Below are positions 3,634 to 17,712 of a stretch of 26,517 bases of DNA, piece by piece. This DNA comes from a virus (lineage: Duplodnaviria > Heunggongvirae > Uroviricota > Caudoviricetes), in the IMG/VR virus record IMGVR_UViG_2778261459_000001, positions 1 to 26,517 of that record; one strand, written 5' to 3'. The notes beneath the pieces were generated by a model that saw only the letters and a list, made by a program, of their open reading frames with translations, had not been told where the DNA came from and made no database searches. Each line of letters opens with the position of its first letter. The stretch's first letter is position 1. A program made the position numbers and the translations under genes.

Positions 3634-4130
3634 TGCCTCCATCATTACGAAAAGCCGTTGCTGCTGCTATTGGTGGCGGAGCAATTGCTATAGCATCAGT
3701 GTTAATCACTGGCCCAAGTGGTAACGATGGTCTGGAAGGTGTCAGCTACATACCATACAAAGATATTGTTGGTGTATGGACTGTATGTCACGGGCATACA
3801 GGAAAAGACATCATGCTCGGTAAAACGTATACCAAAGCAGAATGCAAAGCACTCTTGAATAAAGACCTTGCCACTGTCGCCAGACAAATTAACCCGTACA
3901 TCACAGTCGATATACCGGAAACAACGCGCGGCGCTCTTTACTCGTTCGTCTACAACGTGGGTGCTGGCAATTTCAGAACATCGACGCTTCTTCGCAAAAT
4001 AAACCAGGGTGATATTAAAGGCGCATGTGATCAGCTACGGCGCTGGACATACGCTGGCGGTAATCAATGGAAAGGACTGATGACTCGCCGTGAGATTGAG
4101 CGTGAAGTCTGTTTGTGGGGGAAACAATGA
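3633..4130 (+). CDS. rrrD: SAR (signal-arrest-release) endolysin, lysozyme family
   Basis: 165 aa. N-terminal Gly/Ala-rich weakly hydrophobic segment ([20 protein letters not shown]) typical of SAR domains, followed by a lysozyme-like core. Start overlaps the holin stop. Confidence 0.9.
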
Positions 4131-12006: not shown

Positions 12007-12413
12007 AAATTCGTCAGGCGCAGACCAGCGCAACTTACATTCTGCCGGACCCCGGTGAACTGAATAAATGCGTCCTGATCCGCCTGCGGGTGGATATGCC
12101 CGCGGATAACTTTGGCGTGGAGCCTCAATACCCGGTTACGTTCCGGACATGGGCGAAGGTTATCCAGACCAGTGCCACCACCTGGCAGGAAACCGCGCAG
12201 ACCGGGGACGCCATCACCCATTACATCACCATTCGTTACCGCCGGGGGATCACCGCTGATTATGAGGTGGTCTGCGGTGACAGTGTGTACCGGGTGAAAC
12301 GTCAGCGCGATCTGAACGGGGCGCGGCGCTTTCTGCTGCTGGAGTGTACGGAGCTGGGCGAATGTAGGCAGAGTCACGGAGGCAACAATGACGACTTCCT
12401 TTTTGCACGTTGA
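12003..12413 (+). CDS. head closure / head-tail adaptor protein
   Basis: ATG overlaps the upstream stop (ATGA); size and position fit a head-tail joining protein. Confidence 0.65.
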   Translation: MKIRQAQTSATYILPDPGELNKCVLIRLRVDMPADNFGVEPQYPVTFRTWAKVIQTSATTWQETAQTGDAITHYITIRYRRGITADYEVVCGDSVYRVKRQRDLNGARRFLLLECTELGECRQSHGGNNDDFLFAR

Positions 12414-12894
12414 TTTTCAGCAGCCCGCGGAGATGCGCTTTAACCGCGCCCGTGTCCGGCGGGCGTTTGTCACGATTGGTCAGCGTCATATGCGTGATGC
12501 CCGTCGGCTGGTGATGCGCCGTGCGCGGTCGGCACCGGGTGAAAACCCCGGTTATCAGACCGGACGCCTGGCTCGTTCGATTGGTTACATGGTACCCAGA
12601 GCCAGTAAACATCGCCCTGGTTTTATGGCACGTATAGCCCCTAACCAGCGTAATGGAGAGGGAAACCGCCGTATCACCGGTGATTTTTATCCGGCTTTTT
12701 TGTTCTATGGCGTGAGGCGAGGGGCAAAGCGTCGTCGCAGCCATCATCGTGGCGCATCCGGTGGCAGCGGCTGGCGACTGGCTCCACGTAATAACTTCAT
12801 GGTGGAAACGCTTGAAAAGAACCGCAGCTGGACACGCTATTTTCTGGCGCGGGAATTGCGTAAATCACTGAAGCCGGAGCGACGACACAGATGA
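12388..12894 (+). CDS. HK97 gp10-like morphogenesis protein, Arg-rich
   Basis: GGAGG 7 nt before ATG 12388. Basic, Arg-rich 168-aa protein in the head-to-tail joining region. Confidence 0.65.
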   Translation: MTTSFLHVDFQQPAEMRFNRARVRRAFVTIGQRHMRDARRLVMRRARSAPGENPGYQTGRLARSIGYMVPRASKHRPGFMARIAPNQRNGEGNRRITGDFYPAFLFYGVRRGAKRRRSHHRGASGGSGWRLAPRNNFMVETLEKNRSWTRYFLARELRKSLKPERRHR

Positions 12895-13459: not shown

Positions 13460-13630
13460 ATGTTTGTGAAACCTGTTAAAGGGCGGTCAGTTCCTGACCC
13501 TGCCCGCGGCGACCTTTTGCCCGCCGAAGGGCGAAATGTTGACGAGAACAACTACTGGCTGCGCCGTGAAGCAGCGGGTGATATCCGGCGCGTGAATAAA
13601 AAGGTGAACACCGATGACGATAAGCTTTAA
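13460..13630 (+). CDS. small protein (56 aa), Mu gp38 / DUF2635-like, overlapping the sheath start
   Basis: ATG 13460 to TAA 13628-13630: MFVKPVKGRSVPDPARGDLLPAEGRNVDENNYWLRREAAGDIRRVNKKVNTDDDKL. Below the track cut-off. Mu-like phages carry a small gene in this position. Confidence 0.5.
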   Translation: MFVKPVKGRSVPDPARGDLLPAEGRNVDENNYWLRREAAGDIRRVNKKVNTDDDKL

Positions 13631-15110
13631 CACCATTCCGTCGAATACGCTGGTTCCGCTGTTTTATGCGGAAATGGATAACCAGGCGGCGAATACTGCA
13701 CAGGACAGCGGAGCATCGCTGCTGATTGGTCATGCCAATAACGGTGCAGAGATTGTTGCCAACAGTCTGGTACTGATGCCGTCGGCAGACTATGCACGCC
13801 AGATTTGTGGTGCGGGAAGTCAGCTGGCGCGTATGGTCGAGGCTTATCGCCAGACTGACCCGTTTGGCGAGCTGTATGTGATTGCCGTTCCTGAATCCAC
13901 AGGCGCGGCGGCAACGGTTACGCTGACGGTGACCGGGGAAGCAACCGAAAGCGGCACGGTGAATGTCTATGTGGGACGTACCCGCGTGCAGGCTCCGGTG
14001 ACCAACGGCGATAACGTCACGACGATTGCCAGCAGTATCCAGGATGCCATCAATGCCGTTCCGGCCCTGCCGTTTACAGCTTCATCTTCGGCTGGTGTTG
14101 TCACGCTGACCGCGCGTCATAAGGGGCTTTGCGGGAATGAAATTCCTGTCAGCCTCAATTACTACGGCTTCGGTGGGGGTGAAGTGCTGCCTGCGGGCGT
14201 ACAGATTGCCGTGGCGACGGGGACCGCCGGAACGGGCGCTCCGGTTCTCACCGGCGCGGTGGCTGCAATGGCGGATGAGCCGTTTGATTATATCGGTCTG
14301 CCGTTCAACGACACGGCCTCCGTTAACACGCTGGTGACCGAGATGAACGATACCAGCGGTCGCTGGAGCTATGCGCGTCAGCTGTATGGTCATGTGTATA
14401 CGGCAAAGACCGGTACGCTGTCAGAACTGGTGACCGCAGGTGACCAGTTTAACCAGCAGCACATTACCCTGGCGGGGTACGAAAAAGAGACCCAGACGCC
14501 TGCCGACGAGCTGGCGGCAAGCCGTACCGCCCGCGCAGCGGTGTTTATTCGCAACGATCCGGCACGTCCCACGCAGACCGGTGAGCTGGTGGGTATGCTG
14601 CCTGCGCCGAAGGGGAAACGGTTCACGATGACTGAACAACAGACCCTGTTGTCTCATGGCGTGGCAACGGCGTATGTCGAAAGCGGGGTACTGCGCATTC
14701 AGCGTGATGTCACCACGTACAGGAAAAACGCTTACGGGGTTGCGGATAACAGCTACCTCGACAGTGAGACGCTGCATACCAGCGCGTATGTACTGCGCAA
14801 ACTGAAATCCGTCATTACCAGTAAGTACGGGCGTCACAAGCTTGCCAGTGACGGTACCCGCTTTGGTCCCGGTCAGGCAATTGTCACCCCGGCGGTGATC
14901 AAAGGGGAACTGCTGGCAACCTACCGTCAGCTTGAGCGTGCGGGGATCGTGGAAAACTACGAACTGTTTAAGCAGTACCTGGTTGTGGAGCGTGATGCCA
15001 GCGATCCGAACCGTCTGAACACGCTGTTCCCGCCTGACTATGTTAACCAGTTGCGTGTCTTTGCCGTGGTTAACCAGTTCCGTCTTCAGTATTCAGAGGA
15101 GTCCGCATAA
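13614..15110 (+). CDS. contractile tail sheath protein (Mu gpL-like)
   Basis: 498 aa; size and position before the tube gene; start MTISFNTIPSNTLVPLFYAEMDN... is typical of Mu-like sheath proteins. Confidence 0.9.
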   Translation: MTISFNTIPSNTLVPLFYAEMDNQAANTAQDSGASLLIGHANNGAEIVANSLVLMPSADYARQICGAGSQLARMVEAYRQTDPFGELYVIAVPESTGAAATVTLTVTGEATESGTVNVYVGRTRVQAPVTNGDNVTTIASSIQDAINAVPALPFTASSSAGVVTLTARHKGLCGNEIPVSLNYYGFGGGEVLPAGVQIAVATGTAGTGAPVLTGAVAAMADEPFDYIGLPFNDTASVNTLVTEMNDTSGRWSYARQLYGHVYTAKTGTLSELVTAGDQFNQQHITLAGYEKETQTPADELAASRTARAAVFIRNDPARPTQTGELVGMLPAPKGKRFTMTEQQTLLSHGVATAYVESGVLRIQRDVTTYRKNAYGVADNSYLDSETLHTSAYVLRKLKSVITSKYGRHKLASDGTRFGPGQAIVTPAVIKGELLATYRQLERAGIVENYELFKQYLVVERDASDPNRLNTLFPPDYVNQLRVFAVVNQFRLQYSEESA

Positions 15111-15466
15111 TGGCCCGTATCGGGGGAACCTGTTATTTCAAAATTGACGGTCAGCAGCTATCGCTGACCGGCGGCATTGAGGTGCCCATGAACAGGACGG
15201 TCAATGATGACATCATCGGCCTGGACGGTTCAGTGGACCGCAAGGAAACTCACCGTGCGCCTTATGTCAAAGGGAGCTTCAAGGTGCCGAAGAATTTTCC
15301 GGTGAGCAAAATCACCTCGTCTGATGAGATGACCATCACTACCGAGCTGGCGAACGGTCAGGTCTATGTATTGTCGTCCGCCTGGCTGCACGGCGAAGCG
15401 AACCATAATGCCGAAGAAGGCACAGTCGATCTTGAGTTCCACGGTGAAGAAGGGGATTACCAGTAA
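15110..15466 (+). CDS. tail tube protein (Mu gpM-like)
   Basis: 118 aa, TAATG overlap with the sheath gene; canonical sheath-tube pair. Confidence 0.85.
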   Translation: MARIGGTCYFKIDGQQLSLTGGIEVPMNRTVNDDIIGLDGSVDRKETHRAPYVKGSFKVPKNFPVSKITSSDEMTITTELANGQVYVLSSAWLHGEANHNAEEGTVDLEFHGEEGDYQ

Positions 15467-15735
15467 TGAAAGAGCTTGAGTTAAAGAAACCGATTATTGC
15501 TCATGGCGAGACACTCTCCGTACTGGAGTTTGATGAACCCACCGGGAAGGATGTCCGCGAGCTGGGGTATCCCTACCAGATGAATCAGGATGAGTCCGTC
15601 AGACTTCTGGCGCATGTGGTGTCGAAATACATTGTGCGGCTGGCGAAAGTGCCGCAAAGCTCTGTCGACCAGATGTCTCCGGCAGACCTGAATGCAGCGG
15701 CGTGGCTTGTGGCCGGTTTTTTCCTCCAGGCCTGA
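15466..15735 (+). CDS. tail assembly chaperone (upstream frame of a frameshift pair)
   Basis: 89 aa, TAATG overlap with the tube gene, directly upstream of the tape measure gene. Confidence 0.7.
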   Translation: MKELELKKPIIAHGETLSVLEFDEPTGKDVRELGYPYQMNQDESVRLLAHVVSKYIVRLAKVPQSSVDQMSPADLNAAAWLVAGFFLQA

Positions 15736-15884
15736 CGGCTGAATACCTCACTGATCGCTTCTTTGACTGCGCCAGTTACTGGCGCATTAATCCCTTCGAA
15801 TTGCTGAATATGCCGATCAGTGAAATTCCCTTGCTGGTCAGTCAGGCAAACAGGATAGAGCAGGAGAAACGCACACATGGCTGA
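15717..15884 (+). other. putative programmed -1 frameshift: slippery heptamer T_TTT_TTC (15717-15723) and -1 frame extension to 15884
   Basis: In the chaperone frame the codons are GGT TTT TTC 12 codons before the stop. The -1 frame is open from the slip site to TGA 15882-15884, which overlaps the tape measure ATG (15877), giving a fusion ending ...RIEQEKRTHG. Confidence 0.5.
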
Positions 15885-17712
15885 ATTTGAGCTTAAGGCG
15901 TTGATCACCGGTGTCGACAGACTTTCTCCCGCGCTGTCGAAAATGCAAAAGAAAATCCGGGGATTTAAACGCCAGGCGGAAGAAGCGTCACAGGGTGGGC
16001 TGGCGCTTGGTGGCGGACTGGCAGCGGGTCTGACGCTTTCCCTGAAATCTTATGCCGATCAGGAAAACGCCGCCACCGGGCTGAAAGTCGCCATGATGGA
16101 TGCGAACGGCGAGGTTGGAAAGAGCTTTCAGGACATCAATAAACTGGCTATTGGCCTGGGTAACCAGCTACCCGGTACAACGGCTGATTTCCAGAACATG
16201 ATGCAGATGCTGGTGCGTCAGGGGATCCCGGCAGAAAACATTCTTGGTGGTGTGGGTAAAGCGACAGCTTATCTTGCGGTACAACTGAAAAAAACACCGG
16301 AAGCGGCTGCTGAGTTTGCTGCAAAGATGCAGGATGCTACCGGAACGGCGTCAGAAGACATGATGGGGCTGTTCGACACTATCCAGAAGGCGTTTTATCT
16401 GGGCGTTGACGATACCAACATGTTGTCCTTCTTCACTAAAACCAGTTCTGTTCTGAAGATGGTGAACAAGGACGGTCTTCAGGCTGCACAGAGCCTTGCC
16501 CCCATCAGCGTCATGATGGATCAGATGGGGATGAACGGGGAGTCGGCAGGTAATGCCCTGCGAAAAGTTATCCAGTCCGGATTAAGTGTTAAGAAAATCA
16601 GGGACGTCAATAAAGTCATGGCTCGCCAGAAACTCGGGGTACAGCTCGATTTTACTGACGGCAAAGGAAGTTTTGGCGGTCTTGATAACATGTTCAGGCA
16701 ACTGGCAAAGTTGCGAAAACTGACCGACGTTAAGCGAACAGGCGTACTTAAGGCAATATTTGGTGATGATGCTGAAACCCTTCAGGTGGTCAATGCTCTG
16801 ATCGATAAAGGAAAGGATGGTTACGATCAGATCCAGCAGAAGATGAATAAACAGGCCAGCCTGAATAAACGTGTTCAGGCACAGCTTGGTACGCTGTCCA
16901 ACCTGTGGGAGGCAATGACGGGGACCGCAACTAACGGTCTTGCAGCTATTGGCGGCGCATTTTCTGGTGACGCTAAAAATATCACGCAATGGCTGGGGGA
17001 GTTGGGGGAAAAATTCACGAAGTTTGCGGATGAAAATCCCCGGGTTATTCGCGGCGTCGTCGGGCTTGCTGCCGGTCTTGCGATTCTGAAACTGGGATTG
17101 ATGGGCGTGGGCAGTGCCATCAGTATTGTCAGCAGGATCATGTCGATGACGCCGATTGGCATGATTGCGACGGCGATAGCCCTGGCTGCGGGATTAATTA
17201 TCACTAACTGGGATGTTGTCGGACCTTATTTTAAGAAACTCTGGGAAACCATTGGTCCTTATTTTGAGGCTGGCTGGGAACTCCTTAAGAAAGTTTTTGC
17301 CTGGTCGCCGCTGGGGATGGTGATCAATAACTGGGGGCCGGTTGTTAAGTGGTTTCAGGATATGTGGGACAAGCTGAAGCCAATTATTGAGTGGTTTACC
17401 GACAGTTCCGGTGACACGGTCGATGCCATTAACTCTGCGCAGTGGGGCGCGGGTGCTTATGATGCTTATGGGACGGGAATACCGGCGCGGGGATACACAC
17501 CTTATCCGGTGGTGGATCCGGCTCAGTCAAACAACGCCTCCGGTGCCACAGGCCCGAATCCCTTCATGATTAACAAAGCTTCTGCGCCAAAAGTTGATGG
17601 TGAGATCAAGGTCTCTTTTGTGAATTCGCCTCCGGGTATGCGGGTTATGGAAACGCGATCCAGCGGTTTTGATGTCAGCCATGATGTTGGCTATACGCGC
17701 TTTGGCAGGTAA
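15877..17712 (+). CDS. tail tape measure protein
   Basis: 611 aa with Ala/Gly-rich and hydrophobic segments and a Trp-rich C-terminal region; follows the chaperone frameshift pair. Confidence 0.9.
   Translation: MAEFELKALITGVDRLSPALSKMQKKIRGFKRQAEEASQGGLALGGGLAAGLTLSLKSYADQENAATGLKVAMMDANGEVGKSFQDINKLAIGLGNQLPGTTADFQNMMQMLVRQGIPAENILGGVGKATAYLAVQLKKTPEAAAEFAAKMQDATGTASEDMMGLFDTIQKAFYLGVDDTNMLSFFTKTSSVLKMVNKDGLQAAQSLAPISVMMDQMGMNGESAGNALRKVIQSGLSVKKIRDVNKVMARQKLGVQLDFTDGKGSFGGLDNMFRQLAKLRKLTDVKRTGVLKAIFGDDAETLQVVNALIDKGKDGYDQIQQKMNKQASLNKRVQAQLGTLSNLWEAMTGTATNGLAAIGGAFSGDAKNITQWLGELGEKFTKFADENPRVIRGVVGLAAGLAILKLGLMGVGSAISIVSRIMSMTPIGMIATAIALAAGLIITNWDVVGPYFKKLWETIGPYFEAGWELLKKVFAWSPLGMVINNWGPVVKWFQDMWDKLKPIIEWFTDSSGDTVDAINSAQWGAGAYDAYGTGIPARGYTPYPVVDPAQSNNASGATGPNPFMINKASAPKVDGEIKVSFVNSPPGMRVMETRSSGFDVSHDVGYTRFGR

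What the first reader, a model, noticed from the sequence alone, without database searches (positions are those of the whole stretch)
15466..15884. Programmed -1 ribosomal frameshift in the tail assembly chaperone
A slippery heptamer T_TTT_TTC lies 12 codons before the chaperone stop, and the -1 frame stays open for 54 codons, ending exactly where the tape measure gene begins. This is the conserved G/GT-type chaperone frameshift of tailed phages and is not represented by either ORF in the track alone.
Basis: partly seen in the sequence, partly recalled or inferred. Interest (0 to 1): 0.4.

Follow-up and report, generated by a model that had tools for sequence, protein, structure and literature searches.

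The report
Tail chaperone −1 frameshift, P2 type
This prophage makes a second, longer tail-assembly chaperone when a few ribosomes slip back one base on a run of six T's, a well-known phage trick that is real here but missing from public annotation of this phage group.

Summary
T_TTT_TTC (15717-15723) is in phase in the 89-aa tail assembly chaperone gene (15466-15735). That gene lies between the tail tube gene and the tape measure protein (TMP) gene of an SfV-like Mu-tailed prophage. The heptamer ends 3 sense codons before the TGA, not 12. The −1 frame then runs 53 sense codons to a TGA at 15882-15884, overlapping the TMP ATG (15877) by 8 nt. The predicted fusion is 139 aa.

- The chaperone is Pfam PF10109, the family of P2 gpE.
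- The site matches the P2 E/E+E′ site in residue position (GFF), sequence (GGTTTTTTG in P2) and product sizes (91/142 aa).
- More than 100 distinct relatives in three subfamilies (down to about 40% identity), plus phage PG1 and P2, keep T_TTT_TTN and a −1 ORF ending within a few nt of the TMP start.
- Most relatives have no start codon for the −1 ORF.
- Substitutions in the gap fall on −1-frame third positions.

No stimulatory structure sits at the canonical 5-9 nt spacing. Mu itself uses the other (+1/−2) frame, so P2 is the better comparator.

One oddity remains unexplained. A hairpin (15763-15790) lies 39 nt downstream and its stem is invariant at synonymous sites.

This is an ordinary, known mechanism and mainly an annotation gap.

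The parts
15466..15735 (+). 0-frame tail assembly chaperone gene (89 aa; gpE/gpG analogue), stop TGA 15733-15735
   Evidence: ORF. It matches PF10109 Phage_TAC_7 at E 2.4e-15 (56.7 bits against a cut-off of 25), with the domain ending at residue 86, the second Phe of the heptamer. It also matches phrog_166 'tail protein'. It lies between the tail tube gene (PF10618, 15110-15466) and the tape measure gene (PF10145, 15877-17712).
15717..15723 (+). Slippery heptamer T_TTT_TTC (P-site UUU, A-site UUC; both tRNA-Phe re-pair on UUU UUU after a −1 slip)
   Evidence: Sequence read and phase checked. It is invariant in 15/15 distinct group-1 sequences, although the preceding Ala codon varies at its third base among A, C, G and T. 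T_TTT_TTT occurs in 23/23 distinct SfIV/ST64B-type sequences and T_TTT_TTC in 67/67 distinct Pseudomonas/Burkholderia-type sequences. P2 and PG1 have T_TTT_TTG. U_UU.U_UU.C is listed among heptamers with more than 0.1% shift in E. coli without a stimulator (PMC4066793).
15723..15884 (+). −1 frame extension (53 aa + TGA), the T/E′-like domain. The fusion CDS is join(15466..15723,15723..15884), giving 139 aa.
   Evidence: Reconstructed. The extension matches phrog_32181 at E 3e-41. It is conserved in the −1 frame only: 76/53/56% aa identity with no stops, while the other two frames have stops, and substitutions are biased to third positions (9/5/27 for window against EPP-1). The motif [YF]W[RK][ILV][ND]P is conserved in most homologs (PG1 has YFGVSP). 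It aligns to P2 E′ in hhalign.
15763..15790 (+). Conserved hairpin inside the extension (UUGA-C-UGCGCCAG-UUA-CUGGCGCA-UUAA), 39 nt after the heptamer; function unknown and probably not a classical frameshift stimulator
   Evidence: Fold energy is −12.7 kcal/mol, z −4.5. The core is invariant at all synonymous sites in 15 sequences while the loop base varies. The 19-mer was found only in this gene context: 79 of the 80 viral-contig matches analysed sit 51 nt after the heptamer start. The divergent relative L309 keeps a 12-bp palindrome with a different peptide. It is absent in the other subfamilies checked.
15862..15879 (+). Shine-Dalgarno (AGGAG 15862-15866) and ATG (15877) of the tape measure gene, overlapped by the end of the −1 ORF
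   Evidence: Sequence, ORF, PF10145 match. The same 8-nt overlap of the frameshift-product stop with the tape measure start is seen in P2.

Best explanation
This is a programmed −1 ribosomal frameshift in the tail assembly chaperone gene of an SfV-like temperate myophage. It is homologous to P2 gpE/gpE+E′ and analogous to lambda gpG/gpGT.

Most ribosomes translate 15466-15735 and release an 89-aa chaperone. A minority have tRNA-Phe on UUU (P site) and UUC (A site) of U_UUU_UUC and slip back one base. They re-pair on UUU UUU, continue in the −1 frame and terminate at 15884. This gives a 139-aa protein with the chaperone domain fused to a 53-residue, probably helical C-terminal domain.

By analogy with lambda and P2 (inferred, not shown here), the shared N-terminal domain coats the tape measure protein. 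The extension recruits the tube protein to start tail tube polymerisation. Neither protein stays in the virion, and the fixed short:long ratio is set by slip efficiency.

The slip appears to rely on the heptamer alone. No upstream SD-like element and no downstream structure at 5-9 nt is present or conserved.
For: - Gene order is sheath, tube, chaperone, tape measure, with Pfam/PHROG support.
- The heptamer is in phase.
- The architecture is conserved in homologs at 40-77% aa identity (EPP-1, AH07, SfIV, ST64B, phiP27, BgVeeders33, the DVM-2008 tailocin, PG1). Each has T_TTT_TTN at the aligned FF and a −1 ORF of 54-65 codons ending within a few nt of the tape measure start. The 0-frame tail after the site varies from 9 to 63 nt and is unconserved.
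- The same holds in 12 further enterobacterial genomes and in 90 distinct viral-contig sequences.
- The Gly/Ser codon before the run always ends in T, although its neighbours vary synonymously.
- Substitutions in 15736-15876 show −1-frame codon periodicity and no −1 stops.
- 13 of 16 relatives (P2 excluded) have no ATG/GTG/TTG in the −1 frame anywhere between the upstream −1 stop and codon 20 of the extension. The window's GTG 15702 has no SD.
- P2 has GGTTTTTTG at the aligned GFF, products of 91/142 aa against 89/139 aa here, the same 8-nt overlap with its tape measure gene, and an annotated −1 join.
- hhalign of the reconstructed fusions against P2 E+E′ gives 86% probability, E 5e-6, across both domains.
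- U_UU.U_UU.C shifts above background in E. coli without a stimulator and is used by IS elements.
Against: - No protein evidence exists for the fusion in this lineage. Efficiency is unknown.
- The extension does not reach Pfam PF06528 (P2 E′), so the homology of the C-terminal domain rests on one hhalign result.
- The AlphaFold model of the fusion was too poor to use (pLDDT 52).
- Insertion of one U by RNA polymerase on the T6 run would give the identical protein and cannot be excluded from sequence.
- I could not read Xu et al. 2004 or Christie et al. 2002. The experimental basis for P2 is cited second-hand (PMC3091744, PMC5009743).
Confidence: 0.9

Rival explanations
1. Transcriptional slippage: RNA polymerase adds one extra U on the T6 run, so a fraction of mRNAs carry the two parts in one frame. 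The protein made would be identical (…GFFPPGL…).
For: The site is a homopolymer (T6 here, T7 in the SfIV/ST64B group). One viral contig (L029) has T8, which fuses the frames in DNA and shows the run is indel-prone.
Against: From general knowledge, efficient slippage by bacterial RNA polymerase needs runs of about 9 or more. Here the runs are 6-7. The run always starts at codon position 3, giving a perfect X_XXY_YYZ in every lineage. Tandem tRNA slippage requires that phase and polymerase slippage does not, though shared descent also explains it. The homologous P2 site is annotated and cited as a translational frameshift (PMC3091744).
Confidence: 0.05
2. The −1 ORF is a separate small gene (60 aa from GTG 15702) translated by its own initiation, as annotated in phage vB_EcoM-689R6.
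For: the ORF listing gives 15702-15884 with a GTG start. One GenBank record and about 10 protein clusters call it a 'hypothetical protein'.
Against: There is no SD-like sequence before GTG 15702. 13 of 16 relatives (P2 excluded) have no start codon in that frame between the upstream stop and codon 20 of the extension. Conserved residues begin immediately at the heptamer. Only about 10 clusters exist for the −1 ORF against more than 150 for the chaperone.
Confidence: 0.02
3. Coincidence or non-coding constraint: the heptamer simply encodes a conserved Phe-Phe, and the 141-nt gap is conserved as a regulatory leader of the tape measure gene (RNA hairpin, SD) rather than as protein.
For: FF is part of the conserved end of the PF10109 domain. 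The gap does contain a nucleotide-level conserved hairpin.
Against: TTT-TTN preceded by T is kept in more than 100 distinct sequences even though TTC and other Gly/Ser codons are available. The substitution pattern in the gap is third-position biased in the −1 frame, and all compared relatives lack −1 stops. The −1 peptide is conserved across subfamilies that share no nucleotide similarity there.
Confidence: 0.02

Closest known systems
Phage P2 gpE / gpE+E′ (−1 frameshift at T_TTT_TTG in the FETUD tail operon; Christie et al. 2002, cited via PMC3091744)
   Same: Both share Pfam family PF10109 for the N-terminal domain. The slip site is at the aligned G-F-F at the end of that domain (GGTTTTTTG against GGTTTTTTC). 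Product sizes are nearly identical (91/142 against 89/139 aa). In both, the frameshift product's stop overlaps the tape measure start by 8 nt. Neither has a stimulatory hairpin at the usual position. Both are contractile-tailed phages (PMC3091744).
   Different: Overall identity is only about 23% in the hhalign alignment. The extension is not recognised by PF06528. The last heptamer base is C rather than G. The 0-frame tail is 3 codons rather than 6. The rest of the tail module here is Mu-like, not P2-like. This subfamily carries a conserved hairpin 39 nt downstream that P2 lacks.
Phage lambda gpG / gpGT (−1 frameshift at G_GGA_AAG; Levin et al. 1993; Xu et al. 2004, 2013, 2014, cited via PMC5009743)
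   Same: The genomic position is the same (between the major tail protein and tape measure genes). The logic is the same: a short abundant chaperone plus a rare C-terminally extended form made by −1 slippage near the 3′ end. The presumed function is the same: the chaperone coats the tape measure and the extension recruits the tube subunit.
   Different: There is no detectable sequence similarity. The heptamer differs (Lys/Gly against Phe/Phe tRNAs). Lambda has a non-contractile tail. The reported lambda ratio is about 30:1, and the efficiency here is unknown.
Phage Mu gp41 (tail assembly chaperone with a reported −2 frameshift; Xu et al. 2004 via PMC5009743 and PMC2628397)
   Same: The sheath, tube, DNA-circulation and baseplate genes of the window are Mu-type. 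Mu gp41 also touches PF10109 (24.7 bits, just under the 25-bit cut-off). The Mu extension shows a similar A…P-E…L-x-L-P-L-S pattern.
   Different: Mu gp41 is 144 aa and belongs to PF23746, which the window protein does not match. In Mu the open extension frame is +1 (reached by −2) behind a G5 run, and the −1 frame is closed. Here −1 is open and +1 has 5 stops.
dnaX and IS911/IS3-type bacterial −1 frameshift signals
   Same: Both use tandem-slippage heptamers of the X_XXY_YYZ class. U_UU.U_UU.C is used by some IS elements.
   Different: Those signals depend on an upstream SD-like element and/or a hairpin or pseudoknot 5-9 nt downstream. Neither is present or conserved here.

Membership tests
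G/GT-type tail assembly chaperone frameshift of long-tailed phages | Gene pair located between the major tail/tube gene and the tape measure gene | tested here: met
   Tube 15110-15466 (PF10618), chaperone 15466-15735, tape measure 15877-17712 (PF10145).
G/GT-type tail assembly chaperone frameshift of long-tailed phages | [quoted passage not shown] | tested here: met
   T_TTT_TTC at 15717-15723, 9 nt before the TGA. It is the only in-phase heptamer in the window whose −1 reading passes the 0-frame stop.
G/GT-type tail assembly chaperone frameshift of long-tailed phages | Overlapping downstream ORF in the shifted frame with no start of its own, running to the tape measure gene | tested here: met
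   The −1 frame has 53 sense codons ending at 15884 and overlapping ATG 15877. There is no SD before GTG 15702, and 13 of 16 relatives (P2 excluded) have no start codon at all.
G/GT-type tail assembly chaperone frameshift of long-tailed phages | Frameshift architecture conserved among homologs even where sequence diverges | tested here: met
   Three subfamilies plus PG1 and P2, with more than 100 distinct sequences, all show T_TTT_TTN and a −1 ORF ending within a few nt of the tape measure start. Two exceptions among 160 viral contigs are 1-nt insertions (one in the T run, one in a G run 40 nt downstream) that fuse the frames.
G/GT-type tail assembly chaperone frameshift of long-tailed phages | Two proteins with a common N-terminus made at a fixed ratio, both needed for tail assembly and absent from virions | not testable with these tools
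   This needs western blot, mass spectrometry and genetics. Nothing in the held literature covers SfV-like phages.
P2 gpE/gpE+E′ family | N-terminal domain is PF10109 (Phage_TAC_7) | tested here: met
   56.7 bits against a cut-off of 25, residues 4-86. P2 E scores 47.9 bits over residues 7-85.
P2 gpE/gpE+E′ family | T6 slippery run at the G-F-F that ends the domain | tested here: met
   P2 has GTC GGT TTT TTG and the window has GCC GGT TTT TTC. GFF aligns with GFF in hhalign.
P2 gpE/gpE+E′ family | C-terminal extension is PF06528 (Phage_P2_GpE) | tested here: not met
   The window fusion gives no PF06528 hit at E ≤ 1, while P2 E+E′ scores 76.3 bits. Profile-to-sequence alignment (hhalign) still aligns the extensions (86% probability). 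This suggests a divergent homologue rather than a family member by the Pfam criterion.
Mu gp41 type (−2 frameshift) | PF23746 Gp41_Mu domain, with the extension in the +1 frame behind a G run | tested here: not met
   The window chaperone hits only PF10109. Its +1 frame has 5 stops in 15736-15876. Mu has PF23746 at 119.5 bits and an open +1 frame at 3950-4117 after GGGGG.
Stimulator-dependent bacterial −1 PRF (dnaX/IS type) | Stable structure starting 5-9 nt after the heptamer and/or an SD-like element 6-17 nt upstream | tested here: not met
   47-nt downstream windows of nine homologs give z-scores from −1.8 to +1.15 with no common fold. The window's 77-nt fold has z −1.6. The upstream sequence GCTTGTGGCCGG has no SD-like motif.

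The most novel reading that the evidence does not exclude
The hairpin at 15763-15790 has a stem that is invariant at synonymous sites, and it is kept as a palindrome in a divergent relative whose peptide differs. It may be a functional RNA element specific to this subfamily that tunes expression around the frameshift. One possibility is a roadblock that pauses already-shifted ribosomes, so that ribosome traffic feeds back on slippage at the heptamer. Another is an element that controls stability, Rho access or tape measure initiation in the poorly translated 141-nt gap. In either case chaperone:fusion:tape-measure stoichiometry would be set by more than the heptamer alone.
Probability: 0.1. 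Interest if true: 0.5.

Novelty: new member of a known kind. Interest (0 to 1): 0.22.

Why it matters
The biology is textbook: conserved tail-chaperone frameshifting was described in 1993-2004. The value here is practical.
- This exact segment is present in 1064 of 5426 complete E. coli genomes.
- The one RefSeq record inspected annotates only the 89-aa protein and leaves 141 nt blank before the tape measure gene.
- None of the SfV/SfI/SfII/SfIV/ST64B/phiP27-type phage records inspected carries a joined CDS.
- PHROGs lists the −1 parts as 'unknown function' (phrog_32181, phrog_11318).

A probably essential tail assembly protein is therefore missing from the proteomes of a very common prophage group and of the related Pseudomonas tailocins. 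These PHROG families can now be given a function.

The result also shows that a Mu-type tail module can carry a P2-type −1 site where Mu itself uses −2. The shift direction is therefore evolutionarily labile within one tail lineage.

Tried and rejected
- Stimulatory structure at 15724-15780. Folds of the window and eight homologs show nothing significant or shared at canonical spacing. RNAalifold on 15 sequences proposed long-range pairing of the heptamer with the tape measure SD region. It has almost no covariation, only 2 pairs with double changes, which is no better than shuffles on that measure. I do not rely on it.
- Rfam scan of 15300-16100: nothing relevant.
- Terminator scan. A weak 5-bp hairpin plus the T run (15703-15722) was flagged, but the count is at the chance level and the stem is not conserved.
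- Collision with a ribosome terminating at the nearby UGA as stimulator. The A-site to A-site distance is 4 codons here and 7-22 in relatives. The reported optimum is 8-10 (PMC6815119), so it is not a conserved feature.
- Full-length 'fusion' proteins in the 5.8-billion-protein database (P0001-P0006). These are singletons with several scrambled segments, typical of indel-ridden assemblies, and are not annotated frameshift products.
- AlphaFold of the fusion with a 43-row alignment gave pLDDT 52 and pTM 0.34. This is too poor for fold searches, so none was run.
- PDB sequence search with the fusion profile: no relative.
- NCBIfam: no model for either the window fusion or P2 E+E′.
Subfamily alignments were used instead.
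- Literature. Xu et al. 2004, Christie et al. 2002 and Allison et al. 2002 are not held. I found no held paper that mentions the frameshift in SfV-like phages. I therefore cannot say whether SfV is listed in Xu's tables.

Full report
**What is there.** The window is an SfV/SfI/SfII-like temperate myophage or prophage, 98-99% identical over 15000-16200 to those phages and to Escherichia phage vB_EcoM-689R6.

Around the finding, the plus strand carries these genes:
- tail sheath, 13614-15110 (PF04984/PF17482);
- tail tube, 15110-15466 (PF10618);
- an 89-aa ORF, 15466-15735, matching PF10109 'Phage tail assembly chaperone proteins, E, or 41 or 14' (E 2.4e-15);
- a 141-nt gap;
- the tape measure gene, 15877-17712 (PF10145);
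- a Mu gp43-like DNA-circulation protein.

**Check of the observation.** The sequence reads GCC GGT TTT TTC CTC CAG GCC TGA in frame 0, with T_TTT_TTC at 15717-15723.
- The heptamer is in phase.
- In the −1 frame the reading from 15723 is CCT CCA GGC CTG ACG … for 53 sense codons to TGA 15882-15884. This overlaps the tape measure ATG (15877) in ATGGCTGA.
- The fusion is join(15466..15723,15723..15884), which gives 139 aa.

Within the window's 23 plus-strand genes there are 15 in-phase X_XXY_YYZ heptamers. Only this one leads to a −1 reading that passes the 0-frame stop. A −1 open run this long is found at under 5% of positions.

**Conservation.** I reconstructed the same region in phages whose chaperone is 40-77% identical:
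- Edwardsiella EPP-1 and Pantoea AH07;
- Shigella SfIV, Salmonella ST64B and E. coli phiP27;
- Burkholderia BgVeeders33, the Pseudomonas fluorescens tailocin-like element DVM-2008, and Stutzerimonas PG1.

All have T_TTT_TTC, T_TTT_TTT or T_TTT_TTG at the aligned Phe-Phe. All have a −1 ORF of 54-65 codons that ends within a few nucleotides of, or overlapping, the tape measure start. Most share a motif around [YF]W[RK][ILV][ND]P in the extension (PG1 has YFGVSP). The 0-frame tail after the site is 9, 30, 48 or 63 nt long and unconserved.

Twelve further enterobacterial genomes from more than ten genera behave identically. The Gly codon before the run is always GGT, while the preceding Ala codon uses all four third bases.

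In IMG/VR viral contigs, 23 distinct SfIV/ST64B-type sequences all carry T_TTT_TTT. A further 67 distinct Pseudomonas/Burkholderia-type sequences all carry T_TTT_TTC. The only two exceptions among 160 loci are 1-nt insertions (T8 in place of T7, and an extra G 40 nt downstream) that fuse the two frames in DNA.

**The gap is protein-coding in the −1 frame.**
- Between the window, EPP-1 and AH07, substitutions in 15736-15876 fall 9/5/27, 20/13/24 and 22/11/33 on −1-frame codon positions 1/2/3.
- The −1 translation is 53-76% identical with no stops. The other two frames have 1-5 stops and lower identity.
- This pattern also excludes the antisense ORF 15585-15908 as the source of constraint. Its third positions coincide with −1-frame first positions.

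**The −1 ORF is not an independent gene.** 13 of 16 relatives (P2 excluded) have no ATG, GTG or TTG in that frame between the upstream stop and codon 20 of the extension. The window's GTG 15702 has no SD. Only about 10 protein clusters in the large database correspond to the −1 ORF called alone, against more than 150 for the chaperone.

**Comparison with known systems.**

P2 is the closest characterised case.
- Its record annotates E (91 aa) and E+E′ (142 aa, joined CDS, '−1 frameshift'). The site is GTC GGT TTT TTG, and the E+E′ stop overlaps the T (tape measure) start by 8 nt.
- My reconstruction procedure reproduces the published 142-aa product (PMC3091744).
- PF10109 ends at the second Phe in both proteins.
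- A profile of nine reconstructed fusions aligns to P2 E+E′ over both domains (86% probability, E 5e-6), with GFF on GFF.
- The window's extension is not recognised by PF06528, so it is a divergent E′-like domain.

Mu itself is different.
- gp41 is a 144-aa PF23746 protein.
- Its extension is open in the +1 frame behind a G5 run, and the −1 frame is closed.
- This agrees with the reported −2 shift (PMC5009743, PMC2628397).

**Mechanism.** U_UUU_UUC lets both tRNA-Phe re-pair perfectly after a −1 slip. In E. coli, U_UU.Y is the second most shift-prone tetramer class. U_UU.U_UU.C and U_UU.U_UU.U shift at more than 0.1% without any stimulator, and H_HH.U_UU.Y motifs are among the most efficient (PMC4066793).

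I found no stimulator.
- The 47 nt after the heptamer fold no better than shuffles in nine homologs (z from −1.8 to +1.15, no shared fold).
- There is no SD-like element upstream.
- The distance to the 0-frame stop is not conserved. This argues against collision with a terminating ribosome.
- The same absence of structure is reported for P2 and its relatives (PMC3091744).

Function is inferred by analogy to lambda G/GT. There the chaperone domain binds the tape measure and the extension recruits the tube protein (PMC5009743). Efficiency is unknown here. P2-type sites are said to be 2-3 fold more efficient than lambda's (PMC5009743).

**An unexplained extra.** Inside the extension lies a hairpin, UUGA-C-UGCGCCAG-UUA-CUGGCGCA-UUAA, at 15763-15790. 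It starts 39 nt after the heptamer and folds at −12.7 kcal/mol, z −4.5.
- In 15 distinct sequences of this subfamily, every synonymous site in the 8-bp core is invariant. The loop base and the neighbouring third positions vary freely.
- The 19-mer was found only in this gene context in the viral-contig matches analysed.
- The divergent relative L309 keeps a perfect 12-bp palindrome with a G·U pair, although the peptide changes from DCASYWRIN to TCARFWRMS.
- In an Erwinia MAG sequence (L026) the outer stem changes UUGA/UUAA to UCGA/UCGA, which gives one compensatory pair.
- It is absent at the homologous place in the other subfamilies checked.
- Because the core never varies, covariation cannot prove an RNA role.
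- Its spacing is wrong for a classical stimulator.

I list it as unexplained.

**Annotation status.** None of the phage records inspected for this group carries a joined CDS. The one RefSeq E. coli record inspected leaves the gap blank, and the segment is present in 1064 of 5426 complete genomes. PHROGs files the −1 parts under unknown function.

**Verdict.** The finding is real and correctly interpreted. It is an unannotated member of a long-known, experimentally grounded class, so interest is low.

Noticed in passing
window 15763-15790: A hairpin (8-bp GC-rich core plus 4 outer pairs) lies inside the −1 extension. Its stem is invariant at all synonymous sites in 15 relatives. A divergent relative keeps it as a 12-bp palindrome with a different peptide. 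It sits 39 nt after the heptamer, and its function is unknown.
   Followed up: partly
L029 846-853 and L030 about 885-890 (IMG/VR contigs): Two of 160 related viral contigs have 1-nt insertions that fuse chaperone and extension into one frame in DNA. One has T8 instead of T7, and the other has an extra G 40 nt downstream. These could be sequencing errors or natural mutants that make only the long form. [quoted passage not shown]
   Followed up: partly
window 15723-15727 and 15860-15869: CCUCC directly follows the heptamer. RNAalifold pairs UUUUUCCU with the tape measure SD region AGGAGAA(A/G), and GGCCU with CAGGC at 15843-15847. This would hide the tape measure SD until the chaperone is translated. 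Covariation support is negligible.
   Followed up: partly
window 12696-12702: A second in-phase T_TTT_TTG lies in the 168-aa ORF 12388-12894. Its −1 frame stays open for only 31 codons and stops before the 0-frame stop, so it is probably chance.
   Followed up: no
L014 (phage Mu) 3950-4117: Mu's chaperone extension is open in the +1 frame after ACGGGGGCG and carries a pattern (A…PEWALSLPLS) resembling the window's −1 extension (A…NPFELLNMPIS). The extension domains therefore look homologous although the shift direction differs.
   Followed up: partly
L010 (Pseudomonas DVM-2008) 1746-1916 and L109-L188: The same frameshift architecture is conserved in the headless SfV-like tail clusters of Pseudomonas fluorescens that were proposed to be pyocins/tailocins (PMC2647930). 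These particles presumably need the frameshift product too.
   Followed up: partly
window 15733-15736: The chaperone stop is UGA followed by C. From general knowledge, UGA-C is a weak termination context in E. coli. The stop is TGA in 14 of 15 relatives and TAA in Edwardsiella anguillarum/EPP-1.
   Followed up: no
L019 and L026, about 10-17 nt before the heptamer: In some relatives the codons W-L-V-A spell GCTGGTGG, the E. coli Chi sequence, just upstream of the slippery run. The window has GCTTGTGG instead.
   Followed up: no
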